From a phage: DNA of 64,000 bases. The stretch is from sequence record PZ386964.1. The stretch is one strand, 5' to 3'. Positions 1-15,359 of the stretch are shown one piece after another; the stretch's first letter is position 1, and each line of letters starts with the position of its first letter. Both the position numbers and the translations under genes were made by a program. The notes under the pieces were generated by a model that was given only the letters and a program-made list of their open reading frames with translations, was not told the DNA's origin and searched no databases.

Positions 1-515
1 TACATGACACCTTTGCGGTCCTTGATGTCTTCGTAGGCCGCTTGCGCACAGTCGGATAAGCGAAGGCCATAATCATGAGCTACGCCGGAAAGGTAATCGA
101 CTGCGACCATGATGGTGACATCAATATCCATGCTCTGATTTTTAGCAATGGCGTCACCAAGCCGTCCGAGAGTCTTTGCCAAGCGAAGGATAAACGAGTG
201 AGGGTGGGTACCTTTGTCAGCGCAACCGCCGCCGTTGATGTCTTCGATTTTTGCACCATTTTGCGCGGCAAGGATAGTCAATACAACAAGACAATCACCA
301 ATGTCGTCCTTGATTGCGGCCTGCAGGTCACAGATGGCCTGCTCTGTATATCCAATTTCAGGGTCAAAGAACACAAGGTCATGGAGTTGATCAACGTGGT
401 CGGTTAACTCCCCAAACTCGCTGATAAGCTTCGGGTATTGGTCCTTAAGGTCGCAACCTTGGATGATGTTACGGTCAGAAGCCCACTGGCGAATGTTTGC
501 ATAAATCTGTTTCAT
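1..515 (-). CDS. MazG-like nucleoside triphosphate pyrophosphohydrolase (partial; start codon in window, 3' end runs off window start)
   Basis: Open frame on minus strand from ATG at 515-513 to position 1 (translated by hand, no stops): MKQIYANIRQWASDRN...LISEFGELTDHV...KDDIGDCLVVL; EExxE and acidic-helix motifs typical of all-alpha MazG-type NTP-PPases. Not in the ORF track because no in-window stop. ATGA overlap with upstream gene stop. Confidence 0.5.
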   Translation of the reverse strand, partial: MKQIYANIRQWASDRNIIQGCDLKDQYPKLISEFGELTDHVDQLHDLVFFDPEIGYTEQAICDLQAAIKDDIGDCLVVLTILAAQNGAKIEDINGGGCADKGTHPHSFILRLAKTLGRLGDAIAKNQSMDIDVTIMVAVDYLSGVAHDYGLRLSDCAQAAYEDIKDRKGVM

Positions 516-1030
516 TTATTTTCCTTTGATGCATTGAATTGATCGATTTTTATTTTAGCCTGATTATAAGTATCAATCAAGCTATTAACTTTATCTTTTA
601 ATCGGTTTGTTTCTGCGGCGAACTGAACAAGAAATCTGACATCTTCTTCTGATAGTCCACAGTTTCCTTCTGGGATAGAGAGGCGTCCAGTGGTCGCAGA
701 GTCGGGCACACTCCTGAGTAACTCACGGGAGCAGCTGAGTTGCTCGCGCAACTTGATATTCCCAGACTTGTAACGAGCAATAGTGTCATCAGCAACCAGT
801 TGCGCTTCCTGGCGACCTTTCTCATATGCCGATGCCGATTCAACCTGTAAAGATGCAATTTGCTCTTCGAGTGCATTTATCTTGTCCTTACGCTCATTAA
901 GCGATGTCAGATATTGGTTATCCTTGGCCAGTGATGCGTTGGTTTGCTGCAGGTCTTCAACGTATGATCCAGCGGCAAACGCGCCAACAAGGGCCATAAT
1001 CTTCAGGAGTGGTACAATTCTTTCTATCAT
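512..1030 (-). CDS. i-spanin (Rz-like): N-terminal membrane anchor plus periplasmic coiled coil
   Basis: 172 aa; N-terminal hydrophobic segment LLKIMALVGAFAAG followed by long coiled-coil-like region; contains a fully embedded out-of-frame lipoprotein ORF, the classic Rz/Rz1 architecture. Confidence 0.6.
   Translation of the reverse strand: MIERIVPLLKIMALVGAFAAGSYVEDLQQTNASLAKDNQYLTSLNERKDKINALEEQIASLQVESASAYEKGRQEAQLVADDTIARYKSGNIKLREQLSCSRELLRSVPDSATTGRLSIPEGNCGLSEEDVRFLVQFAAETNRLKDKVNSLIDTYNQAKIKIDQFNASKENK
598..825 (-). CDS. o-spanin (Rz1-like outer-membrane lipoprotein), embedded in the i-spanin gene in another frame
   Basis: Internal Met at 825 gives MRKVARKRNWLLMTLLLVTSLGISSC...: positively charged n-region, hydrophobic core and lipobox I-S-S-C; mature part short and Pro/Ser-containing. 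Confidence 0.5.
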   Translation of the reverse strand: MRKVARKRNWLLMTLLLVTSLGISSCASNSAAPVSYSGVCPTLRPLDASLSQKETVDYQKKMSDFLFSSPQKQTD

Positions 1031-4425: not shown

Positions 4426-4844
4426 GACAATTCCTCTAAATACTTGATGATGTGATGAATAGTTCCCTTCACGATTATCTCACGTTGAACGTCTGCAGTA
4501 TTATAACGCTTTAATTCAATAGAAGGGTGGACTAAATAAAACATCTTCTCAGAATCAACCTTAAGCAGAACAAATGATGGGTATTTCCAATCATTCCACG
4601 AAGAAAGAAAGCTGCATTGACCTTTCTCAAATGCATTTCTGAAAGGTGCAGTGGTGACCCTTGCAGGCCACGATTCAAAGAACTTCATTTCAAGCCAAAA
4701 GCCGCGCCCTTTCCGGTTGGTGCCGATTACGTCCGGCACGCCATCACCAGTCATCGACTCGATTCGTTGAAGCTTCAATACTGACTCTGAATGCTTCTTT
4801 AAAGGTACGAATATGTATTTCTGCTCACGGTTATTTGTTGCCAT
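4422..4844 (-). CDS. VRR-NUC domain nuclease (PD-(D/E)xK)
   Basis: 140 aa; GVPDVIG...GFWLEMK matches the VRR-NUC PD..(E/D)xK signature; overlaps the SNF2 gene as in many phages. Confidence 0.55.
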   Translation of the reverse strand: MATNNREQKYIFVPLKKHSESVLKLQRIESMTGDGVPDVIGTNRKGRGFWLEMKFFESWPARVTTAPFRNAFEKGQCSFLSSWNDWKYPSFVLLKVDSEKMFYLVHPSIELKRYNTADVQREIIVKGTIHHIIKYLEELS

Positions 4845-7728
4845 CTGGATACACCTGTTTGATAACGTCGACTATGAACATGTCAATGCCTTCAAGCTTG
4901 CGACCTTTCATCAGGAAGAATGCGCCGTTCCCGACGTTTTCAGCAATGTATTTCCCGTACTTCTGGAACTTTTCTGGACGAATCCTGAAGCGCATTGGCG
5001 AGTCGGTCGAGTCGTCTTTGCACATAAGGTCGATGAACTGAGTCTCAAGCTTGTTTCCGTACTGGTCAAACTCTGCGTAGCGGCCATCAGCTTGAAGACC
5101 TTTTTTAAGCTTGCCGTGCTTTGTATAGATGCCGCGCTCAAGTCGTTTACGGATGCGTGTCGCTTCGTTCTCGTCTGCAAGCACTTTCTTTGTCAACTTG
5201 CCGATTACTATTGCACGCTCGTCATCACCGACTTCCTTCATCTGGCGTATTGAAGCGCCGGACGTCACGCCAATAAGATAAGGGTCATTATACGCCCAGC
5301 CAAACTTTGTGTGCATCTCTGTAAGGTCGCCGTATTTGACTTCAGCATTGGCCAATGCATCCTTTTGCTTTTGCGTTAAGGTTCCGGCTTCACGTGCTTC
5401 GATATACTTCATCGCCTTCACCATTCCGTATCCTTTCGCGTTCATGATGCCGCCGATTAGCTTTCCGTTCGCGATGGTCCAGTTCATCGAAGAGTGATCA
5501 GGGTCGATTGGCACATAATCCACGCCTTCTTTCGCAAGTTCACGTAGTATCGCAATCGTCTGGTCTTCGTCCTTAGCAGCGCGTAAGCAGGCAGCGGCAA
5601 ATTCCAACGGGTAGTGTCGCTTAAGCCACAAAGTCCAGTAGGTCACGACCGCGTATGACACGGAGTGTGACTTGTTAAAGCCCCATGACCCGAACGTGGC
5701 CATCGCTTGCCAAAGCTTTCTTGCATCCGCTTCCGGTACACCGTTATTTATTGCTCCTGCAACGAAGTCTTCGCCAAGCTTGTTAAAGTATTCTTCACCC
5801 TTACGGCCTGACATCGCCTTACGTACAGCGGACGTTTTCGCCCAGTCAAATGAACCAATCTCTTTAACCACGGCCATGATTTGCTCTTGGTAAAGAAACA
5901 CGCCGTAAGTCTCTTTTAAGTACGGCTCAAGCTGCGGCACGTCGTATTCAATCGGCGCACGCCCTGCCGCGCGTTCAATGTATTTCTGGGCCATACCGGA
6001 CGACAACGGGCCAGGTCGACCCAAAGCTGTCAGGTTGTCGATTTTGTTAAAGTTATCGACGTGAACAAAGTTTGTTACTGAGCGTACAGCATCACCTTCA
6101 AACTGGAAGATGCCTGACATCTTGTTTTCGTTAAGAATGTCAAGGACGCTTTGATCATCAAGCTTGATTCCGTAGAGCGTTTCAGCATCAATAACGCCTG
6201 TATCAGAAATAATGCCGAGAGTACGAAGGCCCAGCGCATCAAGCTTCAAAAGGTTTAGGTATTCGCTGTCAGGCTTATCGATTTGCGCAATCCCTTCTGC
6301 AGTTACAGTACAGTAATCAGAGATTGGGTCATTACACACAATGATTCCCGCTGCGTGAACACCTGTGTGAGACGGGTGAATCTCAAGGTCACCCATGCAA
6401 CGCGCGGCGTCAGGATATTTCGCCACGAACTCTTGACCCGTGGTCGTTGTTGCAAAGGTATCCTCCAGGCCGTGACCATAACGGGCGTCACCGGATGAGT
6501 ATTCAAGCAGTGCGTTTTTAATGTTGGCTGTTTCGTGGTATCCAATGTTGAACTTCTTACCAACTTGAGCCATTACTGAGTTGGCCTTAAGCGTGTTGAT
6601 GTTGCCAAGCTTTGCAACGTTCATTTCGCCGTATTTCTCTTTAAGATAATCAAACACCATATAGCGTTTGGTATCTTCAAAGTCGATGTCGATGTCAGGA
6701 AGGTCGGCGCGGCTTACGTCAATGAATCTGGCAAACAGCAGCTTATACGGGATTGGGTCCACTTCCGTGATGCCGAGGCAATAGCAAACAAGTGAACCGG
6801 CTGATGAGCCGCGCGCAGGACCGACGAGCATTTTTGTTTTTGCGAATCGTACAAGGTCCGCTACTACCAGAAAGTATGAGTCGAAATCTTTCAGCTGAAT
6901 CTGGTGAATTTCTTCGTTGAAGCGGTCCTCATATTCCTGAGTCCATTCTTTGATGTGACCTGCTTTTAGACGGTACTCCATCCCCTCACGCGCAAGCTTT
7001 ACCATGTCACCAGCAAGGTGAATAATCGGTGCCTTACGCAATTTCAGGTCAAGTCCGACTATGCCGTTTGCTATGTCAACAGCATTGGCCGTTGCCTGAT
7101 TGAGCTCATCTTCAGTCAAGATGCCTTTAAGCTGTTTGCGCAAGTCTTCCGCGTCAACGATGCAGTGCGGCTTGACCGTGTCGCGCACTTCCCAAGCATA
7201 AGCGAAGTCAACGTGCTCAGGAGAAGGCATGTGATTGTATCCGGTTAAAACCAGCGGCCTTCCACTGCTACGATGAGCCAATGCCTGGCGCTTTGCCAAA
7301 AGGAACGACGATGGGTTGACGTCTATATAGTCGTAGTCCTCTGGCCGCAGCAACTCCACAGCACCGCCACAGAATTTAACGACGCCATCGAGCGCACCGA
7401 ACTCTGAACGGGTAAGTCCACCGCGCTGCGTTGCAAGTGTTGTAGCATTGTAAAAAGATTTTAAGTCAAGGGCCAATATCCAAGCCTTCGGTTTGAATCC
7501 CTTTTTAGGGTCCGCATCAGGGTCGATGATTGGAATCTCCATCCCAAACATAGGCTTAATATCATTTTTCTGGCATTCCTTTTCCCAGCGAACGTGACCC
7601 CATGTATTGTTATCAACTAATGCCGCGACTTCGCAACCCAACTCTTTGAGCCGTGCTATAATTTCAGGATGCCGTCCATATACTTCTTTGAACGTGTAAC
7701 CGCTGCGAACTCTCAATTGTGGAAACAT
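4831..7728 (-). CDS. DNA polymerase III alpha-type (DnaE-like) replicative polymerase
   Basis: 965 aa; N-terminal PHP-like region; motif GSSAGSLVCYCLGITEVDP corresponds to the conserved Pol III alpha GSAAGSLVAYxLGIT region. Confidence 0.7.
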   Translation of the reverse strand: MFPQLRVRSGYTFKEVYGRHPEIIARLKELGCEVAALVDNNTWGHVRWEKECQKNDIKPMFGMEIPIIDPDADPKKGFKPKAWILALDLKSFYNATTLATQRGGLTRSEFGALDGVVKFCGGAVELLRPEDYDYIDVNPSSFLLAKRQALAHRSSGRPLVLTGYNHMPSPEHVDFAYAWEVRDTVKPHCIVDAEDLRKQLKGILTEDELNQATANAVDIANGIVGLDLKLRKAPIIHLAGDMVKLAREGMEYRLKAGHIKEWTQEYEDRFNEEIHQIQLKDFDSYFLVVADLVRFAKTKMLVGPARGSSAGSLVCYCLGITEVDPIPYKLLFARFIDVSRADLPDIDIDFEDTKRYMVFDYLKEKYGEMNVAKLGNINTLKANSVMAQVGKKFNIGYHETANIKNALLEYSSGDARYGHGLEDTFATTTTGQEFVAKYPDAARCMGDLEIHPSHTGVHAAGIIVCNDPISDYCTVTAEGIAQIDKPDSEYLNLLKLDALGLRTLGIISDTGVIDAETLYGIKLDDQSVLDILNENKMSGIFQFEGDAVRSVTNFVHVDNFNKIDNLTALGRPGPLSSGMAQKYIERAAGRAPIEYDVPQLEPYLKETYGVFLYQEQIMAVVKEIGSFDWAKTSAVRKAMSGRKGEEYFNKLGEDFVAGAINNGVPEADARKLWQAMATFGSWGFNKSHSVSYAVVTYWTLWLKRHYPLEFAAACLRAAKDEDQTIAILRELAKEGVDYVPIDPDHSSMNWTIANGKLIGGIMNAKGYGMVKAMKYIEAREAGTLTQKQKDALANAEVKYGDLTEMHTKFGWAYNDPYLIGVTSGASIRQMKEVGDDERAIVIGKLTKKVLADENEATRIRKRLERGIYTKHGKLKKGLQADGRYAEFDQYGNKLETQFIDLMCKDDSTDSPMRFRIRPEKFQKYGKYIAENVGNGAFFLMKGRKLEGIDMFIVDVIKQVYPDGNK

Positions 7729-8270
7729 TATTTACTCCATATGTCATATACGCCAATTTGCTGGCAGACTTTGTGCAGTAATATTACGTCGTCTAATGCA
7801 CGGTGCTTCTGTTCATATTTTCCGAAATATAATTCATACAACTCTTGAAGCTTAACTCTTCGACCAAAAATAGGCAAGGTTTGCTCGACCGTACAAATGT
7901 TTATATCTGGAAATGATACATCACTTAATGTAAGTCCTTCGCGCTGTAGTGCATAATCAAGAATGTTTTTATCGAACGCATGGTTGTGCGCGATAGTTGC
8001 ATCAGTCTTCTTGAAGATTTCTTTTAGCTGCGGGACGAAATTGATGAACGGTGGATTGCACTCAAGGTCTTCATTTGTTAATCCGGTAATCTTTGTGATA
8101 ATTTCTTCAATCACGATTTCAGGATTAATTATGAATTCAAACGTTTCAAGAATCTCTTTGCCGTCTGTCAACAGACCTGCAAATTCAATAGGGCGCGGCT
8201 GCATCCCAAGCGGCGCTTTCGGGTGCACGGTCAATCCGGTTGTTTCGAAGTCATAAGGGAGAAATAACAC
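7728..8270 (-). CDS. DnaQ-like 3'-5' proofreading exonuclease
   Basis: 180 aa; Exo I YDFETTGL, Exo II HNHAFD, Exo III HRALDD motifs; stop/start overlap with polymerase gene. Confidence 0.7.
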   Translation of the reverse strand: MLFLPYDFETTGLTVHPKAPLGMQPRPIEFAGLLTDGKEILETFEFIINPEIVIEEIITKITGLTNEDLECNPPFINFVPQLKEIFKKTDATIAHNHAFDKNILDYALQREGLTLSDVSFPDINICTVEQTLPIFGRRVKLQELYELYFGKYEQKHRALDDVILLHKVCQQIGVYDIWSK

Positions 8271-8282
8271 ATTAGCCTCCTA

Positions 8283-8308
8283 CAAAAAGGCCGCCCATTA
8301 GGACGGCC
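8283..8308 (-). terminator. minus-strand hairpin followed by U-run (intrinsic terminator-like)
   Basis: Plus-strand AAAAA + GGCCG...CGGCC; on the minus strand this is a 5-bp GC stem followed by UUUUU, just downstream of the VOC-like gene. Confidence 0.4.
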
Positions 8309-8324
8309 ACAGATTCACGATTCG

Positions 8325-8876
8325 TTATACAGTGTACGGAGTACCGTCTTGATTCAAGCGCACGATGAACTTCAAATCGACGCCGATGATATCGCGCGTG
8401 TCAAAGATCACGTAATTGTAGCGACGTTGACCAGCAATGTTTGGATTGGTGTGGGAGTCGGTGATGACTTCCTGCGCAACCTGAATGCCTTCTTCGCTAA
8501 AGAACTTACGCCATTCAGCAAGTTCAGCGGCAGTTACGTGCATGCCAAGATGGCTAACCTGATTGTCGTGTGCATCGATATATTCGATGTTTTCGTTGAT
8601 CCAGTTGCAGCCCATTGTGTAGTCAAGGATTTCAAGCTCAAGAGGCTTACCAGCGTCGCCATCAGTACCATTGCCAGCCTGATAGTTGAAGCGCAAGTCA
8701 GCTTCATTGGTGCAATCGTCGCGACGACCTTTAAAGTCATCAGCTTCAAATACGCGACCAGTAGCAACAACATGATCATGGAACCATTCTGTCAGGCCGA
8801 TTTTAGCCAAGAAATCCTGTGCGCGCTGAGCATCTGGAATTGACAGGGCGATTTGTTCAATTTTAAAATGTGGCAT
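8325..8876 (-). CDS. VOC-family (glyoxalase/bleomycin-resistance/dioxygenase fold) protein
   Basis: 183 aa; N-terminal MPHFKIEQIALSIPD...FLAKIGL and HLGMHV segment typical of VOC beta-alpha-beta-beta-beta modules. Confidence 0.4.
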   Translation of the reverse strand: MPHFKIEQIALSIPDAQRAQDFLAKIGLTEWFHDHVVATGRVFEADDFKGRRDDCTNEADLRFNYQAGNGTDGDAGKPLELEILDYTMGCNWINENIEYIDAHDNQVSHLGMHVTAAELAEWRKFFSEEGIQVAQEVITDSHTNPNIAGQRRYNYVIFDTRDIIGVDLKFIVRLNQDGTPYTV

Positions 8877-8896
8877 TTTGTTTCCTTAATTAAATA

Positions 8897-9067
8897 TTAT
8901 TGATTAATTACTGTGTTGCCTTCGATGGAATAAGTCTCAATGGAACCGACGCGCTCGTGGTTAATCTTTGCGTTTTCGATTCTTATTACTTCAAATCCAA
9001 CGCCTTCTTGATCAATCTTCACTTCTGCCACGTCGCCAATCACTTCTACAACAACTTTGATAGTCAT
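8897..9067 (-). CDS. small hypothetical protein (56 aa)
   Basis: ATG at 9067 immediately after the SDR gene stop; hand translation MTIKVVVEVIGDVAEVKIDQEGVGFEV...; below the ORF-track length cutoff. Confidence 0.35.
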   Translation of the reverse strand: MTIKVVVEVIGDVAEVKIDQEGVGFEVIRIENAKINHERVGSIETYSIEGNTVINQ

Positions 9068-9070
9068 GAT

Positions 9071-9754
9071 TTATTTCCCAAATGGAATATCAGTACCAGA
9101 CATAAAGCGCCATGCGCCCGTAATTAAGATATGGCGAATGAAGTCAGCAATTACTTGCGGCTCAGTTTCCAATCCATTCATCAACGCCTTTTTCTGGTAT
9201 TCAGCAGCATACTCAGGAGTCCAGCCGCGAGTCGCGCAAACAGCATCTTCAATCTGTTTGGACATGCCAGTACCGCGTAGCTTGTTAGGACTAATAGAGA
9301 ATACCGTGATCCCGTATTTAGGCGTAAGCTCGTGAGCCATCTGCTTGCTAATCATGAGCGCAGCAGCCTTGGAAGCATTATAACACAAGCTGGACGTCAT
9401 AGGAATATGCGCAGCGTTGGAAACGATATTGATCACAAAACCTTTGTTGTCAATAAGACTTTTCAGCGCGGCCTGAGTCGTGTTGACGAAAGAGAAGGCG
9501 TTGGTGTGCATAACGCGATTGAACTCTTCGTAGTTAACATCTTCGAACCAGTTGTTGGAGTTGACGCCAGCGCAGTTGATCAAGCCTTCTACATCATATG
9601 GGCTTAAAATTTCTTTCATCTGTTTAGCGTCGCGGACGTCATATCCGTATGCTGAATCGATGCCAAGCACGTTATGACCGTAAGCGCCAAGGGTGTCGAA
9701 AATAGATTTACCAAGACCGGAATTGGAACCTGTTACAACAATTACTTTTTTCAT
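9071..9754 (-). CDS. short-chain dehydrogenase/reductase (SDR) family oxidoreductase
   Basis: 227 aa; N-terminal TGSNSGLGKS (TGxxxGxG nucleotide-binding motif) and YNASK catalytic YxxxK motif. Confidence 0.7.
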   Translation of the reverse strand: MKKVIVVTGSNSGLGKSIFDTLGAYGHNVLGIDSAYGYDVRDAKQMKEILSPYDVEGLINCAGVNSNNWFEDVNYEEFNRVMHTNAFSFVNTTQAALKSLIDNKGFVINIVSNAAHIPMTSSLCYNASKAAALMISKQMAHELTPKYGITVFSISPNKLRGTGMSKQIEDAVCATRGWTPEYAAEYQKKALMNGLETEPQVIADFIRHILITGAWRFMSGTDIPFGK

Positions 9755-9819
9755 TTATTTATCCTTTTTGGACTTCGTTTCGATGAGATAAATATAACTC
9801 ATCGAAACGCACAAGTAAA

Positions 9820-10692
9820 CTATTTATTGAAATTAATATTATGGGTGTTAACAAGACGTTCACACATGGCGCTGTAAACACCATCATCGTGTATAGAGTC
9901 TTCGTGCTTCAGGCCGCTGATTGCAAAGCGTGTAAGCTTGACAATCTTAAGCTCGAACAGATGCCACATGTGGTAGTCTTCCGGCGTTTTCAACGTTACT
10001 CCATTAGGGAAAAGCACCTGCATAACCTGGCCAACCATCACGGCGTTATCGCCATAGACAGCGTTGCGCTCACGGAAGGTTGCTGCCATTGCATCAAGAA
10101 TATCGGCGGCAGTTGCCGGAGATTGTTCAACTTTCACAGCCTTAGTCTCTTCTTGCCCTGTTGCACTTGGATCAATTGCTAATTGTTGCACCACTTCACC
10201 TGCCTTGCAAAGATTAAATGTAAAAGCGATTTTATTTTGAGCAACGGAATTATAATACAATGCTTCATCTTGCATCCGCGCGAGTACGTCTTGTCGGTCG
10301 TCGAATACGTTGATGATTCGATAATCGCCGTGCCGCAATGCGTGCGATAGCCATGCAGATTTCATAATAGTTGATGGACGTTTGTCGCCATAGTCTCTCA
10401 TCTTGATTGTAAATTCATCAAAAGGAAAAACATTGTCCAGACGTTCAAAAGTCGCTTGTCTGTATTTTTCTGGCCTTGCAGTCCAATATTCAACCGCCTC
10501 ACCGCGAAGAGATGCCGACTCTACTGCTGATGCAATGTGAGGATAGAACTGATCATAACCAATACCGCTGTGATAGTCATCATAGTCTGACAACGGACCT
10601 GCCACCTTGATGCGGTCTAAGCGCCAACGGTCATCAAACAGCGTTCCGTCAAGGTCGAATACGTTTAAGATTTCGCTGTTTTTAATACTCAT
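9820..10692 (-). CDS. HAD-superfamily hydrolase/phosphatase fused to a C-terminal domain of unknown function
   Basis: 290 aa; N-terminal FDLDGTLFDD = HAD motif I (DxDGT); C-terminal 100 aa unrelated. ATGA overlap with ThyX-like gene. Confidence 0.55.
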   Translation of the reverse strand: MSIKNSEILNVFDLDGTLFDDRWRLDRIKVAGPLSDYDDYHSGIGYDQFYPHIASAVESASLRGEAVEYWTARPEKYRQATFERLDNVFPFDEFTIKMRDYGDKRPSTIMKSAWLSHALRHGDYRIINVFDDRQDVLARMQDEALYYNSVAQNKIAFTFNLCKAGEVVQQLAIDPSATGQEETKAVKVEQSPATAADILDAMAATFRERNAVYGDNAVMVGQVMQVLFPNGVTLKTPEDYHMWHLFELKIVKLTRFAISGLKHEDSIHDDGVYSAMCERLVNTHNINFNK

Positions 10693-11519
10693 CCTTTTGA
10701 TACTCCATCTTTAGCAACTGGATTGTTGGTGATTGGCATCGCACTCCAAAACTGGATGCGCAACTCTTCTTGCTGTGCCGTTGTATCCATCCAATCACGA
10801 TACCAAGGGCAATGGGCTTTGCCATGACGAGGAAACGCGCATTTACCCATACCGATGCATTGCGGCTGTAATAATGGATTTGCCCACGGGTGCACCTTGA
10901 GGACTTCCGCAACCATTGCGCGGAATACTTCTTGATACTCGCCTTGAGTGCGCGTGCACAAGCGGTTTGACGCCATCTGCTGCAGCGTGCGCAAGTTGAA
11001 CTTTGCCATGATATGCGTTTGCATATTAGAAGGCAACACGGCACGTGCATCTTGAATCTCTGCACCAGCCGCGCGAAGTTCTTGATACAAAGCATCGATA
11101 GTCGCCATCGCATCATCCCACTTCTCTGCTAAGTATTGCTTTTGAAGTAAAGATTGGTGCTCTTCATCAGTCCCAAATGCTTCACATTGATCAATCAACT
11201 CTGGATTTTGGTGTGAGAATGCCTTCGGACGAATCGCATCAAATGCAGACGACTCCTGAGCGCGGCTGGTGCGTTCTTGATATGCGCCTGTGCGTGTGCG
11301 TACCATCTGATGGGTCATGTTCTTTGATACAGCTGTGATATCAAAGATATAGTCCACAAAGTCAAAAGGAGACTTGATTGTATCAAGCATGTAGCGCCAA
11401 TGCTCTTGCTTCTCTGATTCCGTCATCTCAGAGACAGGCTTACCAGTCATGCGCGTGTTCTTTGTTTCCAGCAAAAGGTCAAGTGCATCTTGGGTGTATC
11501 GAATTAATTCAACTTTCAT
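10689..11519 (-). CDS. thyX: flavin-dependent thymidylate synthase (ThyX)-like protein, divergent
   Basis: 276 aa; ThyX-like blocks FDFVDYIFDITAVS...HQMVRTRTGAYQERTSRAQ (RHR-x7-S region, here RTR) and ARAVLPSNMQTH...NLRTL...RTQGEYQEV; extra Cys/His-rich C-terminal tail. Confidence 0.6.
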   Translation of the reverse strand: MKVELIRYTQDALDLLLETKNTRMTGKPVSEMTESEKQEHWRYMLDTIKSPFDFVDYIFDITAVSKNMTHQMVRTRTGAYQERTSRAQESSAFDAIRPKAFSHQNPELIDQCEAFGTDEEHQSLLQKQYLAEKWDDAMATIDALYQELRAAGAEIQDARAVLPSNMQTHIMAKFNLRTLQQMASNRLCTRTQGEYQEVFRAMVAEVLKVHPWANPLLQPQCIGMGKCAFPRHGKAHCPWYRDWMDTTAQQEELRIQFWSAMPITNNPVAKDGVSKG

Positions 11520-11532
11520 TTTAATTGTCCTA

Positions 11533-11979
11533 TTAACGGTAATTCACTAGTTGCTGATCACCAGAGAAGGTGCAATGATAAACGAATTGTGCGTTATAAA
11601 GCAACTGAAAACTTTTCTTTGGTTCACTATTAGAACTCATTGATGTAAAGATTTCTGCACCAGAACGGTTTTCACCAATCAGATTGATAAAGCCGCCAGT
11701 TGAACGAGGCTGGACGAAAGTGAAACGTTGCATCCACGGAGTACGGTTGGCACCTTTCCCTGTGAATCCCTGAATCTGAATATTCAAACCTTCTTGCTCA
11801 TTCACACCGATGTAAGTGGTAATCTTCGCACCAGTCGTTGCTGCGGTCTTACCGTCCATCGCTTCGCAATCATAAACAGCGATTGAATCGGAAGTGCGGA
11901 TGGCAGCTTCAGTCGCTTCCATATACATGGTGCCGAGAATAGCAGTTGCGGCAAGCGTGATTCCAGTGATTCGTTTCAT
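11533..11979 (-). CDS. secreted/periplasmic hypothetical protein (signal peptide)
   Basis: 148 aa; N-terminal MKRITGITLAATAILGTMYMEA resembles a Sec signal peptide. Confidence 0.5.
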   Translation of the reverse strand: MKRITGITLAATAILGTMYMEATEAAIRTSDSIAVYDCEAMDGKTAATTGAKITTYIGVNEQEGLNIQIQGFTGKGANRTPWMQRFTFVQPRSTGGFINLIGENRSGAEIFTSMSSNSEPKKSFQLLYNAQFVYHCTFSGDQQLVNYR

Positions 11980-12044
11980 TTTCGTTTCCTCTATGAGTTC
12001 TGCTTCAATGATTAAAGTATACGCCCATTGAAGCAGAAAGCAAA

Positions 12045-13040
12045 TTATTTATTAGCAATATAAGCAAATTTTTGATAGTTATTTGCTTTGATGAGTTTTT
12101 CAACTTCAACAAGGTCATGAGCGACGTCATCAAGCAAAATGTTGCGCCAGGTAGCAAATCGACCGACACTAAACACGTTCAAATCCATGGTCAGCTGCAG
12201 GAGTAGGGCGTGTCGCAAGTCTTTCGGAATGTCGACAATCTTGCCATATTTCTGGTCGACCTTTTCAACTTCTTCAAGAGCGATGTCGCTCCATGAGAGG
12301 CCAAATGCCGTCAGCACTTCGTCAACTTCTGCGCGCAACTTGATGTCACGGTAACGAGTGATGCCGCCAGCGGCTTCAACTGCAGCTTCACTTACGCTGA
12401 CCAAAGGAATTGTTTCAATGATAAGCGTGTCACCAGTAATTGATGCGCGGTAAGTTCTGACGGAGTAGTCAGGGAAGTAAATTGTCTGATACAAATCACA
12501 CTTACGTTTAATCTTAAAGCGGTAAACGCGAATGTTTGCTTTATCAAATGAGAAATCAAGCTTTTGATCAATTCCAGCAAGCTTCATCATGACTGGCAGC
12601 GGCGACGTGTTGATGATTGGCGTCTCGCTATAGCCGCAAAGAGTATCAACCGGAGTATTAAAGAATATGCGGTCACCCAGTTTGTCGACAAGCTGATCAT
12701 AAAAGTCATCAGGTGCAATATAACGCGTTGCAGTTTTAAGCTTCATGATTGAACGACTGCCAAACTGATTGGTGACCTTCATGGAATACATATTGGCAAG
12801 GTTGATTGGGCAATGGTCGTGATAGTAGTTGCCGCGAAAATACACAGCCTTGTCAACTGTCACGGCCTTAAAGGGGATTCCGGTAATACGGCTTACTTCT
12901 TCGCCGCGAAAGCGTAGCAGCGCCTTGTGCTGTTGCGCTCGTTCCCCTGCTTCGTACACAATAGAGTTCGGGAAGTGACACGCGGTGATAAGTCCTGCCA
13001 GTCCGCCGCCGATAATCATTACAGGTTGTTTCATGTTCAT
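12045..13040 (-). CDS. FAD/NAD(P)-binding oxidoreductase
   Basis: 331 aa; N-terminal VMIIGGGLAGL dinucleotide-binding GxGxxG motif. Confidence 0.55.
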   Translation of the reverse strand: MNMKQPVMIIGGGLAGLITACHFPNSIVYEAGERAQQHKALLRFRGEEVSRITGIPFKAVTVDKAVYFRGNYYHDHCPINLANMYSMKVTNQFGSRSIMKLKTATRYIAPDDFYDQLVDKLGDRIFFNTPVDTLCGYSETPIINTSPLPVMMKLAGIDQKLDFSFDKANIRVYRFKIKRKCDLYQTIYFPDYSVRTYRASITGDTLIIETIPLVSVSEAAVEAAGGITRYRDIKLRAEVDEVLTAFGLSWSDIALEEVEKVDQKYGKIVDIPKDLRHALLLQLTMDLNVFSVGRFATWRNILLDDVAHDLVEVEKLIKANNYQKFAYIANK

Positions 13041-13064
13041 TTGTCCTTTGTGGGTGATATGAGA

Positions 13065-13093
13065 AGTATAATAGCTAAATTATTTTACAGCAA
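13065..13093 (-). promoter_or_regulatory. sigma70-like promoter (minus strand) for the oxidoreductase/ThyX operon
   Basis: Minus-strand TTGCTG -17- TATACT about 25 nt upstream of the ATG at 13040. Confidence 0.45.
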
Positions 13094-13117
13094 CAAGTCA
13101 TTTCTATTTAGTACAGA

Positions 13118-13147
13118 CGAAAAAAAGACCCACAACAAGTGTGGGTC
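13118..13147 (-). terminator. rho-independent terminator (minus strand)
   Basis: GACCCACA / TGTGGGTC 8-bp stem, 5-nt loop, followed on the minus strand by a U7 run; directly downstream of the Lys/Ala/Glu-rich gene. Confidence 0.7.
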
Positions 13148-13175
13148 AATTACCGCTATATAACCGTCCTACAGG

Positions 13176-14021
13176 TTATTCCGCTTGATCACCGTCTTCG
13201 GCATCGTCGTTGGATTCAACATCGACAAACTCGATGTGGCCCATCTCTTCCAGCTTGCTCAGGTAGGAGCGAACGGAAGCGCCAAACAGTTGATCTTTAA
13301 CTTTCTCTCCCAGCTCATCGATAGACTGCGCCACGCCAACTTCGCCTTCTTTGATCGCCGCCAGAACGCGCCCACGGGTGGAGTGCTCTTGCGGCTGGCT
13401 CAGGCCATTGCCAGTGTAGATGAAGTGAGTAGCTTTTGCACGACGCTGACCGTTTGCCTTTTTAGCAGCCTTGCGCTCTGCGATGGCTTTGCGACGTTCT
13501 TCAGCTTCTTTCTTACGCTGTTCTTTCTGCTGTTCTGCAGCTTCTTTCGCCGCAATCTTAGCAGCTTCACGCTCTGCCTTGCGTTTCGCTTTAGCTTCTT
13601 CTTTGGCCTTCTCTTTTTCGGCCTTCGCTGCAGCACGGGCCTGATCACGTTCGGCCTTTTTCGCCGCAGCTTGTTCAGCTTTCAGGCGCTTGGCTTCTTC
13701 TTTCGCCTTTGCCTTTTCAATTTCTTTAGCGGCTTTAGCGGCTTCACGCTCTGCCTTCTTAGCGGCAGCCTTTTCTGCACGCTCTTTAGCTTTCTTAGCT
13801 GCTTCTTCAGCACGCTTCTGAGCCTTCTCATCAGCAGCTTGCTTGCGTTTCAGCGCAGCTTCTTCACGCTTGGCTTGTTTTTCCTGCTCACGCTTCTGGC
13901 GTTTTTCTTCGGCTTCTTTCTTTTTAGCCAGGCGTTTTTCTTCAGCCACGCGACGACGTTCTGCTGCGGCTGCTTGTTTTTCTTCTTTAGATAATACTTT
14001 GATTGCTTCGGCCATATTCAC
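13176..14021 (-). CDS. Lys/Ala/Glu-rich charged low-complexity protein with globular acidic C-terminal domain
   Basis: 281 aa; about 180 aa of KxEEAxKK-type charged repeats then ...HFIYTGNGL...HIEFVDVESNDDAEDGDQAE. Confidence 0.5.
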   Translation of the reverse strand: MNMAEAIKVLSKEEKQAAAAERRRVAEEKRLAKKKEAEEKRQKREQEKQAKREEAALKRKQAADEKAQKRAEEAAKKAKERAEKAAAKKAEREAAKAAKEIEKAKAKEEAKRLKAEQAAAKKAERDQARAAAKAEKEKAKEEAKAKRKAEREAAKIAAKEAAEQQKEQRKKEAEERRKAIAERKAAKKANGQRRAKATHFIYTGNGLSQPQEHSTRGRVLAAIKEGEVGVAQSIDELGEKVKDQLFGASVRSYLSKLEEMGHIEFVDVESNDDAEDGDQAE

Positions 14022-14174: not shown

Positions 14175-15359
14175 TTAACGCGCTTTCAAATCACGGTACA
14201 CGGTCAGATTCTTCTTAGCACGGGTGATAGCGGTGTACATCATCTTGGAGTACGGAACGCCGCGCAAGATTTCTTCCAGCACGCACACATTGTCCCACTC
14301 GCTGCCTTGCGATTTGTGCACCGTGATGACATAGCCATAGTCCATGCCTCCAACAGCGCGTTGCGCTTCTTTGCGCACTTCCTGATCAGTAGAGAAGGAA
14401 AGAGGATTGATCTTCACCTTTATATCTTTACCATCAGTTAATGAACGTAAGTTGACATACATTATTTCATTCGACTCATCTTCATCCCTTTCAAAGTCCG
14501 GCACTGGCTCATAGCTAATAACAATCCCTTGCTCGCCATTACAGAATCCTGGCCCGTGTTGGTTGAAGGTGCAAATAACCTTCTCACCGATTCCTGGCAT
14601 TGGCGTTATACGTCCGCTCACTTGCCGTAATAATGAATTCCATTTATCTTTGGTGCTATTATAGGAGCAAATAATTTGATCATCTTCGCCCATGAATTTC
14701 TTCAACGCAGTAACGCGCGGCGATTCTGCCAATACTTTGACGTCATCGTATTCACGCGGAGGAAGTCGGTTGCCTTGGCGCACGAAGAAGGAGGCACGGA
14801 TGATGTTGGACTCTTTCCCTTGCCGCATGATTTCTGTTAACAGAACGTCAACGGCATCTTCAGTAAAGTAGGCGGCGGCTTTTACCGGAGGGACTTGTCC
14901 AATGTCGCCTAATGCCAGCACAGGGATGCGGTGATCAAGAAGGCGCTCTGTGTCCCACTCGCCAACCATCGACGCTTCATCGAGTACAACAAGGTGCGGC
15001 CTTTCATCCAGCTTTGACTTTCTCGAAAAGATTGGCTCATTGTCGTCATTTACGCCGCGCACGTTATAGATGAACTGGTGAAGGGTCTTAGCGCCACGAC
15101 AGCCTTTTTGCTTTAATCGGCTTGCAGCCTTTCCGGTCGGCGCAATATAGATAGCGCCGTACTCACCGACACAGCGACGCACAATCTCGCGAGCAATAGA
15201 GGTTTTACCAGTCCCTGCATAGCCAGCAATGAAAAACACACGCTTCGTCGTTTTACCGTCCTGCAATCGCTTGTACCATGCAACGGCCTTCTCGATGGCA
15301 TTGATTTGTTGCGCGTTAAACTGAATCACTGGCTCATCATTAAATTCTGGAATGTTCAT
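14175..15359 (-). CDS. SF1 helicase, Dda/RecD-like
   Basis: 394 aa; Walker A GYAGTGKTS, Walker B VVLDEASMV, C-terminal VITVHKSQGSEWDNV motif. Confidence 0.7.
   Translation of the reverse strand: MNIPEFNDEPVIQFNAQQINAIEKAVAWYKRLQDGKTTKRVFFIAGYAGTGKTSIAREIVRRCVGEYGAIYIAPTGKAASRLKQKGCRGAKTLHQFIYNVRGVNDDNEPIFSRKSKLDERPHLVVLDEASMVGEWDTERLLDHRIPVLALGDIGQVPPVKAAAYFTEDAVDVLLTEIMRQGKESNIIRASFFVRQGNRLPPREYDDVKVLAESPRVTALKKFMGEDDQIICSYNSTKDKWNSLLRQVSGRITPMPGIGEKVICTFNQHGPGFCNGEQGIVISYEPVPDFERDEDESNEIMYVNLRSLTDGKDIKVKINPLSFSTDQEVRKEAQRAVGGMDYGYVITVHKSQGSEWDNVCVLEEILRGVPYSKMMYTAITRAKKNLTVYRDLKAR

What the first reader, a model, noticed from the sequence alone, without database searches (positions are those of the whole stretch)
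8325..13040. Unusual enzyme cluster (VOC, SDR, HAD-fusion, ThyX-like, FAD oxidoreductase, secreted protein) inside the replication operon
Five genes with metabolic-enzyme signatures are co-transcribed with the replisome genes on the minus strand. This exceeds what is needed for simple dNTP supply and is the kind of gene set seen in phage DNA hypermodification or cofactor pathways. A MazG-like pyrophosphohydrolase at 1-515 lies in the same leftward block.
Basis: inference. Interest (0 to 1): 0.55.

Follow-up and report, generated by a model that had tools for sequence, protein, structure and literature searches.

The report
Candidate thymidine-hypermodification cassette in a coliphage
A compact cassette of enzyme genes in this E. 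coli phage is the best candidate for making an unusual chemical decoration of thymine in the phage's DNA, and the genome's own sequence shows that restriction sites survive only where a "TG" step covers them.

Summary
The window is a Wifcevirus (about 96% identical to FEC19 and Bas99). The six genes exist at the stated coordinates.

They split into three groups:
- A trio kept in every related locus: a UGM/PPO-like flavoprotein, a divergent ThyX, and a HAD phosphatase fused to a DUF6378-like helical domain.
- An SDR plus VOC-like pair that is gained and lost as a unit.
- Two small genes found only in Wifcevirus.

Terminator-like hairpins bracket the cassette, so co-transcription with the replisome genes is not shown.

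A 2025 preprint found sugar-derived hypermodified thymidine at TG motifs in the sister genus Pbunavirus, with no genes assigned. BASEL reported Wifcevirus as resistant to all tested restriction systems except EcoP1_I, with no known protection mechanism.

My own analysis shows a TG-linked footprint in this window:
- All 105 GATC sites are TGATC on at least one strand (about 50 unflanked sites expected).
- 13 of 14 EcoRI and 6 of 6 EcoRV sites are T-flanked.
- None of 16 TG/CA-containing 6-mer palindromes is strongly depleted, against 21 of 48 others.
- Only AGACC (EcoP1_I) lacks TG cover.

No canonical hypermodification gene is present. The cassette is therefore the leading candidate, but this rests on elimination and conservation, not on proof.

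The parts
12045..13040 (-). 331-aa flavoprotein-like enzyme (UGM / protoporphyrinogen-oxidase / amine-oxidase fold); first gene of the cassette; part of the conserved trio
11533..11979 (-). 148-aa protein with signal-peptide-like N-terminus; Wifcevirus-only insert
   Evidence: The translation is. It has no family hit. It is present only in the 3 Wifcevirus loci among the 57 complete intervals.
10689..11519 (-). Divergent ThyX-family flavoenzyme (RTR instead of RHR; Ile at the His53 position; Cys-rich C-terminal extension); part of the conserved trio
   Evidence: Pfam Thy1 E=3.4e-29. TIGR02170 scores 78.3, below its cutoff of 87.9. Alignment to T. maritima ThyX is. None of 67 clade members matches RHR at the motif: 62 match R-x-R with x = T, S or N, and 5 did not match the search pattern. 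All have Ile at the His53 position.
10168..10692 (-). HAD phosphatase domain (T4 PNK 3'-phosphatase type), N-terminal part of the 290-aa fusion protein
9820..10125 (-). C-terminal four-helix domain of the fusion (DUF6378-like), extremely conserved; part of the conserved trio
   Evidence: AF2 predicts helices at 195-280 with pLDDT 88. There are 1618 representatives, many as stand-alone proteins. Nine of 10 homologs give sub-threshold DUF6378 hits, E from 2e-5 to 0.15. It is a separate ORF in some loci. The domain boundary is approximate.
9071..9754 (-). Classical NAD(P)-dependent short-chain dehydrogenase/reductase; accessory module with the VOC-like gene
   Evidence: adh_short E=2.6e-31. TGxxxGxG and the N-S-Y-K residues are readable. 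The best PDB matches are generic FabG proteins at about E=1e-12. It co-occurs with the VOC gene in 37 loci, each occurs alone in 1, and both are absent in 18.
8897..9067 (-). 56-aa ORF of unknown function; Wifcevirus-only
   Evidence: No family hit. It was found in 2 of 57 complete intervals.
8325..8876 (-). VOC (glyoxalase/dioxygenase)-superfamily-like protein, last gene of the cassette; accessory module with the SDR
   Evidence: Glyoxalase_4 E=0.0039, below threshold. Eight of 30 homologs hit it, best E=6.7e-6. Homologs are 53-83% identical. It is absent from Pseudomonas phages. Lys replaces the usual last metal-binding Glu (by reading).
13127..13147 (-). Terminator-like hairpin plus T-run upstream of the cassette
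   Evidence: 8-bp stem with 5 G-C pairs, followed by TTTTTTT.
13079..13106 (-). Weak sigma-70-like promoter match between that hairpin and the first gene
   Evidence: 9 of 12 positions match. The number of such matches in the region is not above chance.
8289..8308 (-). Terminator-like hairpin plus T-run directly after the last gene of the cassette
   Evidence: 8-bp stem with 7 G-C pairs, followed by TTTTT.

Best explanation
The cassette at 13040-8325 (minus strand) is the leading candidate for the machinery behind a thymidine hypermodification of this phage's DNA in TG context.

Shown here or in the literature:
- The phage is a Wifcevirus.
- Its relatives in Pbunavirus carry sugar-derived hypermodified T at TG.
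- This genome shows a TG-specific protection footprint.
- The trio of flavoprotein, divergent ThyX and HAD-DUF6378-like protein is invariably linked across the lineage. It recurs in one phage from a different taxonomic family.
- The genome has no other recognisable modification enzyme.

Inferred mechanism:
- The ThyX-clade enzyme keeps the dUMP-binding arginines but has lost the two canonical histidines. It would build or activate the C5 substituent of a uracil/thymine nucleotide through flavin chemistry.
- The UGM-like flavoprotein would handle or activate the sugar-derived donor, or recycle flavin.
- The HAD domain would remove a phosphate left on a phosphosugar-derived adduct or nucleotide intermediate.
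- In clades that carry them, including this phage, the SDR and VOC-like enzymes would tailor the side chain by oxidation or reduction followed by epimerisation or isomerisation.

The enzyme that gives TG specificity is not identified. The 148-aa secreted protein and the 56-aa ORF are probably unrelated passengers.
For: 1. Identity. The region is 96.7% identical in nucleotides to FEC19 and 95.6% to Bas99.

2. Literature.
- F8 and 14-1 virion DNA has modified thymidines of 362 and 390 u. They replace about a quarter of T, in TG motifs. The genes are unknown.

3. Footprint in the window.
- GATC: 0 of 105 sites lack a TG flank, against 49.9 expected. 47 sites are TGATCA against 10.1 expected, p about 1e-20.
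- EcoRI: 13 of 14 sites are flanked. EcoRV: 6 of 6.
- Strongly depleted 6-mer palindromes: 0 of 16 with TG/CA against 21 of 48 without, p=6e-4.
- Controls: F8 (experimentally TG-modified) gives 1/15 against 12/38. T7 gives 7/16 against 25/48 and T1 gives 7/16 against 16/48.
- Bas99: 0 of 104 GATC sites unflanked. Serratia and Pantoea relatives: 1/67, 9/81 and 0/28.

4. The footprint predicts the published phenotype.
- EcoKI (GTGC) and EcoCFT_II contain TG/CA.
- I deduced EcoCFT_II as CACAG. Among the 5-mers with 90-94 occurrences in the assembled Bas99 genome, it is the only one that also occurs 81 times in T7, the two published site counts.
- AGACC has no TG/CA, and only 22% of its sites are flanked.

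5. Linkage.
- Of the 80 IMG/VR loci fetched plus the phiKTN6 locus, 57 hold the complete flavoprotein-to-exonuclease interval. ThyX is present in 57/57, the DUF6378-like domain in 57/57 and HAD in 53/57.
- SDR and VOC are both present in 37, each alone in 1, and both absent in 18.
- All three trio genes also occur in Rhizobium phage RHph_Y65 (Kleczkowskaviridae) in a different gene context.

6. Elimination. No Pfam or PHROG functional hit beyond primase and helicase in 45 other non-structural ORFs. The remainder of the Bas99 genome is structural genes or small hypothetical ORFs.

7. ThyX clade. None of 67 members matches RHR at the motif and all have Ile at the His53 position. R78, R80, R90, R147, R174, Q75 and E86 are kept.

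Against: - No experiment or computation links any cassette gene to the modification.
- The trio sits in a vertically inherited replication module, so synteny alone is weak. Only one out-of-lineage example was examined, and that phage shows no palindrome avoidance, so its footprint could not be tested.
- TG specificity needs a DNA-reading enzyme, and none of these proteins has a recognisable DNA-binding domain.
- F8 and 14-1 make different adducts, yet their trio proteins are 97.3% (flavoprotein), 93.8% (ThyX) and 84.6% (HAD fusion) identical.
- The ThyX could simply be a thymidylate synthase, and the HAD domain a nucleotidase or end-healing phosphatase.
- The VOC assignment is below threshold.
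- No Wifcevirus virion DNA chemistry has been published in the library searched.
Confidence: 0.5

Rival explanations
1. These are ordinary nucleotide-supply and repair genes plus unrelated auxiliary genes. ThyX makes dTMP. The HAD protein is a nucleotidase or a 3'-phosphatase that heals nicked nucleic acids. The flavoprotein is a redox helper. SDR and VOC are auxiliary metabolic genes. The TG-context modification, if present, would be encoded by unrecognised small ORFs elsewhere in the genome.
For: The Thy1 domain is solid and the dUMP-binding arginines are conserved. The HAD domain is closest to the T4 PNK phosphatase. The genes sit among replication genes. Public annotations use these names. 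The trio proteins of F8 and 14-1 are nearly identical although their adducts differ.
Against: The whole ThyX clade lacks the RHR histidine and the His53 equivalent and scores below the NCBIfam equivalog cutoff. The flavoprotein and the DUF6378-like domain are linked to this ThyX in every complete locus and in one phage from a different family. No alternative enzyme candidate exists in the genome at Pfam or PHROG sensitivity.
Confidence: 0.3
2. The cassette is a sugar or cofactor pathway aimed at the host rather than at DNA. A UGM-like enzyme, an SDR, a VOC epimerase, a sugar-phosphate phosphatase and a secreted protein would remodel envelope glycans, or would make a folate or flavin-type cofactor.
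For: The top structural match is UGM. The HAD fold also matches sugar-phosphate phosphatases such as GmhB. SDR and VOC enzymes are common in sugar tailoring (established knowledge). A signal-peptide protein lies inside the cassette.
Against: The secreted protein is Wifcevirus-only. No glycosyltransferase or transporter was found. The cassette is invariably paired with a pyrimidine-C5 enzyme and placed in the replication block. The Pbunavirus adducts are themselves sugar-derived, so sugar enzymes fit the DNA reading as well.
Confidence: 0.1
3. There is no DNA modification in this phage. The TG-linked pattern reflects site avoidance shaped by mutational or codon biases. Restriction resistance would come from an unidentified protein inhibitor.
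For: TG and CA are mildly over-represented (odds ratio about 1.15). TT/AA-containing palindromes are also spared, as they are in T7 and T1. No chemistry data exist for Wifcevirus.
Against: The rule is absolute for GATC (0 of 105 and 0 of 104 unflanked against about 50 expected) and holds on both strands. It is absent in T7 and T1 and present in the experimentally modified F8. It predicts the published result for all six tested RM systems, including the odd EcoP1_I sensitivity. A single inhibitor covering type I, II and III enzymes is unlikely.
Confidence: 0.1

Closest known systems
Pbunavirus TG-motif thymidine hypermodification (Yee et al. 2025, bioRxiv 10.1101/2025.03.31.646159)
   Same: Pbunavirus is the sister genus. 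Homologs of the flavoprotein, ThyX and HAD-DUF6378-like genes occur in the same order next to the exonuclease and PolIII genes. Both genomes spare TG/CA-containing palindromes from avoidance.
   Different: Pbunavirus lacks the SDR, the VOC-like gene, the 148-aa gene and the 56-aa gene. The chemistry of any Wifcevirus adduct is unknown. In Pbunavirus the genes responsible have not been assigned either.
5-hmdU-based thymidine hypermodification pathways (phages M6, ViI, PhiW-14, PaMx11, SP10; Lee et al. 2021, PMC8989533)
   Same: Both are phage-encoded, give partial replacement of T and protect against restriction. A flavoenzyme takes part in one branch (PaMx11 gp47).
   Different: None of the defining genes was found here: ThyA-type dUMP hydroxymethylase, 5-HMUDK P-loop kinase, aGPT-Pplase amino-acid:DNA transferase, or TET/JBP. 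The PaMx11 flavoenzyme is MnmC-like, not UGM/PPO-like.
ThyX, flavin-dependent thymidylate synthase (Pfam PF02511)
   Same: The Thy1 domain and the dUMP-contacting residues R78, R80, R90, R147, R174, Q75 and E86 are conserved.
   Different: RHR becomes R(T/S/N)R. The His53 equivalent is Ile, Tyr91 is Ala or Val, and His178 is Arg in the window, F8 and XcP1 ThyX (not conserved in the other aligned members). The protein scores below the equivalog cutoff. Wifcevirus, Pbunavirus and XcP1 carry a Cys-rich C-terminal extension.
UDP-galactopyranose mutase / protoporphyrinogen oxidase / amine oxidase flavoenzymes
   Different: The phage protein is much smaller (331 aa against 390-510). It has no Pfam GLF or Amino_oxidase hit and only 11-17% identity to these top matches. 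The substrate is unknown.
T4 polynucleotide kinase/phosphatase (Pnkp)
   Same: The HAD phosphatase domain has the same sub-type.
   Different: There is no kinase domain. Instead the HAD domain is fused to a DUF6378-like helical domain, which is a separate ORF in some relatives.

Membership tests
5-hmdU-type thymidine hypermodification system (Lee et al. 2018/2021) | ThyA-family dUMP hydroxymethylase (or a TET/JBP dioxygenase) to supply 5-hmdU | tested here: not met
   No Thymidylat_synt or TET_JBP hit in the 19 leftward-block proteins or in 45 other ORFs. The 4 kb of genome outside the window is ligase, endolysin and small ORFs in Bas99.
5-hmdU-type thymidine hypermodification system (Lee et al. 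2018/2021) | 5-HMUDK P-loop DNA-base kinase and aGPT-Pplase transferase | tested here: not met
   No such Pfam or PHROG hits. The only P-loop proteins are helicases and the VapE-type primase.
Pbunavirus-type TG-context thymidine hypermodification | Non-canonical thymidine derivative in virion DNA | not testable with these tools
   This needs LC-MS or restriction digests of virion DNA.
Pbunavirus-type TG-context thymidine hypermodification | Protection of TG-containing or TG-overlapped restriction sites | tested here: met
   The test is indirect. It agrees with the BASEL phenotypes.
ThyX thymidylate synthase | Thy1 domain above the Pfam gathering score | tested here: met
   102.4 bits against a cutoff of 24.8.
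ThyX thymidylate synthase | ThyX signature RHRxxxxxxxS, and a score above the NCBIfam equivalog cutoff | tested here: not met
   The motif reads RTR...T. TIGR02170 scores 78.3, below 87.9. None of 67 clade members matches RHR.
ThyX thymidylate synthase | CH2-THF- and NADPH-dependent dTMP synthesis | not testable with these tools
   This needs an enzyme assay or thyA complementation.
UDP-galactopyranose mutase (GLF) | GLF domain or family-level sequence match | tested here: not met
   No Pfam or NCBIfam hit. The profile search against PDB matches only the GxGxxG segment.
UDP-galactopyranose mutase (GLF) | Fold similarity | tested here: met
Classical SDR | TGxxxGxG cofactor motif and the N-S-Y-K catalytic residues | tested here: met
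   VTGSNSGLG, NCAG, IVSNAA and YNASK are readable. adh_short E=2.6e-31.
VOC (glyoxalase/dioxygenase) superfamily | Family-level profile match and paired beta-alpha-beta-beta-beta modules with metal ligands | tested here: inconclusive
   The window protein scores 17.9 bits against a cutoff of 27. Eight of 30 homologs match, best E=6.7e-6. The profile finds no PDB relative. Lys replaces the last metal ligand.
HAD phosphatase, PNKP type | DxDxT, S/T, K and DD motifs and a family match | tested here: met
Single operon with the replisome genes | No terminator between the cassette and its neighbours | tested here: not met
   Terminator-like hairpins lie at 13147-13127 and 8308-8289 on the coding strand. 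Read-through cannot be excluded.

The most novel reading that the evidence does not exclude
The histidine-less ThyX clade may not be a thymidylate synthase. It could be a flavin-dependent C5-alkylating enzyme that transfers a sugar-derived carbon instead of folate methylene. The UGM-like flavoprotein would supply the known flavin-N5-sugar iminium chemistry, and the HAD domain would remove the phosphate of a phosphosugar donor. The products would be C-C-linked polyol or C-glycoside thymidine analogues.

The published masses fit this arithmetic (my calculation):
- dU 228 + pentose 150 + 2H - H2O = 362 (F8).
- dU 228 + hexose 180 - H2O = 390 (14-1).

The same formulae also fit O-linked 5-hmdU adducts, so the masses do not decide between the two. 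SDR plus VOC would create a further adduct variant in the lineages that carry the pair, including Wifcevirus and its Serratia, Pantoea and Xanthomonas relatives.
Probability: 0.12. Interest if true: 0.92.

Novelty: new variant of a known kind. Interest (0 to 1): 0.72.

Why it matters
Pbunavirus phages are among the most used therapeutic Pseudomonas phages. Their thymidine hypermodification was found only in 2025 and has no assigned genes. This analysis does four things:

- It narrows the candidates to a conserved three-gene core plus an optional two-gene tailoring module.
- It predicts that the E. coli Wifceviruses are modified in the same TG context.
- It explains a puzzle in the BASEL data, where these phages resist every tested RM system except EcoP1_I.
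- It offers an E. coli K-12-compatible system (Bas98-101) in which each gene can be knocked out.

If the ThyX paralogue is the key enzyme, this would be a biosynthetic route to hypermodified thymidine unrelated to the 5-HMUDK/aGPT-Pplase pathways. The flank-dependent site-avoidance test is also a cheap way to detect motif-specific DNA modification from sequence alone.

Tried and rejected
- Single-sequence and profile searches against PDB sequences gave nothing useful for the flavoprotein, the VOC-like protein or the C-terminal domain of the HAD fusion.
- I suspected a MazG-like or DUF1599-type relationship for that domain from memory but could not test it.
- Comparing F8 with 14-1, which carry different adducts, pointed to no clear determinant. 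The most divergent protein in the region, ORF070 (62% identity), has no recognisable enzyme motifs (by reading; not scanned).
- Rhizobium phage RHph_Y65 carries the trio and was meant as an out-of-lineage footprint test. It shows almost no palindrome avoidance (4 of 52), so the test was uninformative.
- Pfam and PHROG scans of 45 other ORFs found no further enzyme.
- Literature searches found no paper assigning genes to the Pbunavirus modification, and no restriction or LC-MS data for Wifcevirus DNA.
- At the 4-mer level, T-flank enrichment holds only for GATC and not for GGCC, GCGC or GTAC. Palindromes that start with GT (GTCGAC, GTTAAC, GTATAC) show no flank enrichment.

Full report
**What the window is.** The region 8000-13300 is 96.7% identical to Escherichia phage FEC19 and 95.6% to ManiWeber_Bas99. 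More distant matches are Pseudomonas Pbunavirus and Serratia, Xanthomonas and Pantoea myophages. The window is therefore almost a whole Wifcevirus genome.

On the minus strand, in transcription order:
- Dda-like helicase, 14175-15359.
- A Lys/Ala/Glu-rich 281-aa protein, 13176-14021.
- The cassette, 13040-8325.
- RNase T-type exonuclease, 7728-8270.
- PolIII-alpha, 4831-7728, followed by helicase genes, spanins and a MazG-like gene at the window edge.

The VOC call is the weakest: 17.9 bits against a cutoff of 27 for the window protein, but 8 of 30 homologs hit Glyoxalase_4 with a best E of 6.7e-6.

Co-transcription with the replisome is not shown. Two of the best terminator-like hairpins in the region lie on the coding strand immediately before the first cassette gene (13147-13127) and immediately after the last (8308-8289).

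**What each protein is.**

*Flavoprotein, 331 aa.*
- It has no Pfam, NCBIfam or PDB sequence relative.
- It belongs to a family of about 1954 proteins; the named members are phage proteins and many hits lie on contigs of about 65-73 kb.
- The AF2 model (pLDDT 84.5) is a two-domain FAD fold.

*ThyX homolog.*
- It is a solid Thy1-domain protein (E=3.4e-29) but falls below the NCBIfam equivalog cutoff (78.3 against 87.9).
- Alignment with T. maritima ThyX shows that the dUMP-contacting residues R78, R80, R90, R147, R174, Q75 and E86 are kept. RHR becomes RTR, the His53 equivalent is Ile, Tyr91 is Ala and His178 is Arg.
It is consistent with the PDB alignment.
- In 67 distinct ThyX ORFs next to the flavoprotein gene, the motif is RTR (48), RSR (12) or RNR (2). 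Five did not match the search pattern. None is RHR, and the His53 position is always Ile.

*HAD fusion, 290 aa.*
- The C-terminal domain is a very conserved four-helix bundle.
- That domain has 1618 representatives in the 1.84-billion-protein library. Many are stand-alone proteins of about 100-190 aa. Nine of 10 homologs tested give consistent but sub-threshold DUF6378 matches.

*SDR.* It is an intact classical SDR with no specific relative.

*Small ORFs.* The 148-aa and 56-aa ORFs have no relatives outside Wifcevirus.

**Conservation pattern.** I fetched 80 IMG/VR loci that encode a flavoprotein homolog and searched their ORFs with the window proteins. Of these loci plus the phiKTN6 locus, 57 hold the complete flavoprotein-to-exonuclease interval:

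| Gene or domain | Loci with it |
|---|---|
| ThyX | 57/57 |
| DUF6378-like domain | 57/57 |
| HAD domain | 53/57 |
| SDR | 38 |
| VOC-like | 38 |

- SDR and VOC are both present in 37 loci, each is alone in 1, and both are absent in 18.
- The gene order is constant: flavoprotein, ThyX, HAD-DUF, then SDR and VOC where present, then exonuclease and PolIII.
- HAD and the helical domain are separate ORFs in some loci.
- Pbunavirus (phiKTN6, F8, 14-1) has only the trio.
- The taxonomically unrelated 206-kb Rhizobium phage RHph_Y65 also has all three, scattered over 6 kb among other genes.

The cassette is thus a conserved trio, an optional two-gene module, and Wifcevirus-only passengers.

**Literature that changes the picture.**
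- Yee et al. (bioRxiv 2025) showed that Pbunavirus F8 and 14-1 DNA, long thought unmodified, contains thymidine derivatives of 362 and 390 u. They describe these as a tetrose sugar-alcohol derivative and a cyclised aldopentose derivative. The derivatives replace about a quarter of T, in TG context. F8 DNA resists enzymes whose sites contain TG. The paper stresses that these phages lack known modification genes.
- Humolli et al. [quoted passage not shown] The exception is EcoP1_I, which the authors call a notable exception.
- No paper in the library assigns genes or reports Wifcevirus DNA chemistry.

**New evidence from the sequence itself.** If T in TG is modified, sites covered by TG should escape the selection that purges restriction sites. 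That is what the window shows.

*GATC.*
- GATC is depleted overall, 105 sites against 259 expected.
- Every one of the 105 sites is TGATC on at least one strand: 47 are TGATCA, 58 have one flank, and 0 are unflanked against 49.9 expected.
- TGATCA is 47 against 10.1 expected, p about 1e-20.

*Palindromes built on G-starting 4-mer cores (GATC, GGCC, GCGC, GTAC).*
- Six-mers with an A, C or G flank are nearly absent, 26 observed against 142 expected.
- The T-flanked versions are at or above expectation, 103 against 85.

*Strongly depleted 6-mer palindromes* (observed/expected below 0.25 under a dinucleotide model):

| Genome | With TG/CA | Without |
|---|---|---|
| Window | 0/16 | 21/48 (p=6e-4) |
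| F8 (experimentally modified) | 1/15 | 12/38 |
| T7 | 7/16 | 25/48 |
| T1 | 7/16 | 16/48 |

*GATC rule in relatives* (unflanked sites out of all GATC sites):

| Genome | Unflanked / total GATC sites |
|---|---|
| Bas99 | 0/104 |
| Serratia phage MTx | 1/67 |
| Pantoea phage Kyle | 0/28 |
| MyoSmar-like Serratia phage | 9/81 |
| T1 | 159/235 |

The rule is only mild in Pseudomonas and Xanthomonas phages.

*The tested RM systems.*
- EcoRI sites are T-flanked in 13 of 14 cases and EcoRV sites in 6 of 6.
- EcoKI sites contain GTGC.
- EcoCFT_I is stated to be nearly identical to EcoAI. From memory, EcoAI recognises GAG(N7)GTCA, which contains CA.
- I deduced EcoCFT_II as CACAG. Among the 5-mers with 90-94 occurrences in the assembled Bas99 genome, it is the only one that also occurs 81 times in T7, the two published site counts. 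It contains TG/CA.
- AGACC (EcoP1_I) has no TG/CA. Only 22% of its 68 sites are followed by A, below the background of 32%.

TG-context protection therefore predicts the published outcome for all six RM systems.

*Caveats.*
- TT/AA palindromes are also spared, but that is true of T7 and T1 too.
- GT-starting palindromes show no flank effect.
- The footprint shows protection, not its chemistry.

**Linking the cassette to the modification.** This step is inference by elimination and conservation.
- The rest of the genome is structural genes, replication genes and small ORFs. None gives a Pfam or PHROG functional hit.
- None of the hallmark genes of known thymidine hypermodification is present: ThyA-type hydroxymethylase, 5-HMUDK, aGPT-Pplase or TET/JBP (for the definitions).
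- The trio is shared by Wifcevirus and Pbunavirus.
- The trio combines a pyrimidine-C5 flavoenzyme that has lost two canonical histidines (by recall, the ones involved in folate and FAD binding), a flavoprotein whose nearest structure acts on a nucleotide sugar, and a phosphatase. That fits a sugar-derived thymidine adduct.
- The SDR/VOC pair looks like a tailoring module.

**Arguments against the link.**
- Nothing here explains TG specificity.
- The trio proteins of F8 and 14-1 are nearly identical although their adducts differ.
- Synteny within one lineage is weak evidence.
- The single out-of-lineage phage could not be tested for a footprint.

**Verdict and probabilities.**
- About 0.8 that this phage's DNA is modified in TG context.
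- About 0.5 that the trio takes part in making the modification.
- Lower for the specific roles proposed for each protein.

The system is not a member of the known 5-hmdU/aGPT-Pplase pathways. If it is real, it is a new variant of thymidine hypermodification with a different enzymology.

Noticed in passing
window 1-64000 (whole window); also Bas99 assembled from L004+L001+L005: Every GATC is TGATC on at least one strand: 0 of 105 unflanked in the window and 0 of 104 in Bas99, against about 50 expected. TGATCA is 4.7-fold over expectation. The same rule appears in the Serratia and Pantoea relatives examined, but not in T1.
   Followed up: yes
window, all EcoRI (14) and EcoRV (6) sites: 13 of 14 GAATTC sites and 6 of 6 GATATC sites are preceded by T or followed by A. 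The same holds for GACGTC (12 of 13) and GCGCGC (16 of 16). GT-starting palindromes (GTCGAC, GTTAAC, GTATAC) show no such enrichment, which is unexplained.
   Followed up: partly
Bas99 genome and T7 (L089): The recognition site of the BASEL test system EcoCFT_II can be deduced as CACAG/CTGTG. Among the 5-mers with 90-94 occurrences in Bas99, it is the only one that also matches the published T7 count of 81. This resolves why Wifcevirus resists EcoCFT_II but not EcoP1_I (AGACC, no TG/CA).
   Followed up: yes
window 13176-14021 (-): This is a 281-aa protein with long Lys/Ala/Glu-rich repeats that resemble histone H1 or AlgP, plus a C-terminal globular part. Public records annotate it as 'TolA' and its Pbunavirus homolog as a structural protein. 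It lies directly upstream of the cassette and could be a packaged DNA-binding protein.
   Followed up: no
window 10689-10900 (-), C-terminus of the ThyX homolog: The ThyX homolog has a Cys/His-rich extension (CIGMGKCAFPRHGKAHCPWY). Its three Cys are conserved in Pbunavirus and Xanthomonas phage XcP1, and the extension is absent from RHph_Y65 and other clade members. It may be a metal site.
   Followed up: partly
window 8325-8876 (-): The VOC-like protein is among the most conserved of the cassette (53-83% identity across phages of several host genera). Lys replaces the usual C-terminal metal-binding Glu, and Gln replaces the first His. Distant homologs occur in Microbacterium phages.
   Followed up: partly
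L003 (Rhizobium phage RHph_Y65) 6950-7912 and 12243-12965: The public names look wrong. gp191, 'polysaccharide deacetylase', is the UGM-like flavoprotein homolog. gp205, 'phosphoheptose isomerase', is a HAD plus DUF6378-like protein.
   Followed up: partly
window, whole: Several words are strongly depleted regardless of TG: CCCGG/CCGGG (2 against 53 expected), CTAG (31 against 132), CCGAG and G/C homopolymer 5-mers. Twelve 6-mer palindromes are entirely absent, including CCCGGG, GGATCC, AGATCT, CTCGAG and CGGCCG.
   Followed up: no
window 512-1030 (-) with embedded 598-876 (-): An Rz-like spanin gene carries an embedded out-of-frame ORF. Bas99 annotates the embedded ORF as o-spanin.
   Followed up: no
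L006 3031-4227 and L007 13997-15301 (Pbunavirus ORF070): ORF070 is the most divergent protein between F8 and 14-1 in this region (62% identity, 398 against 434 aa), with a mosaic middle part. Its function is unknown, and it has not been excluded as a determinant of their different adducts.
   Followed up: no
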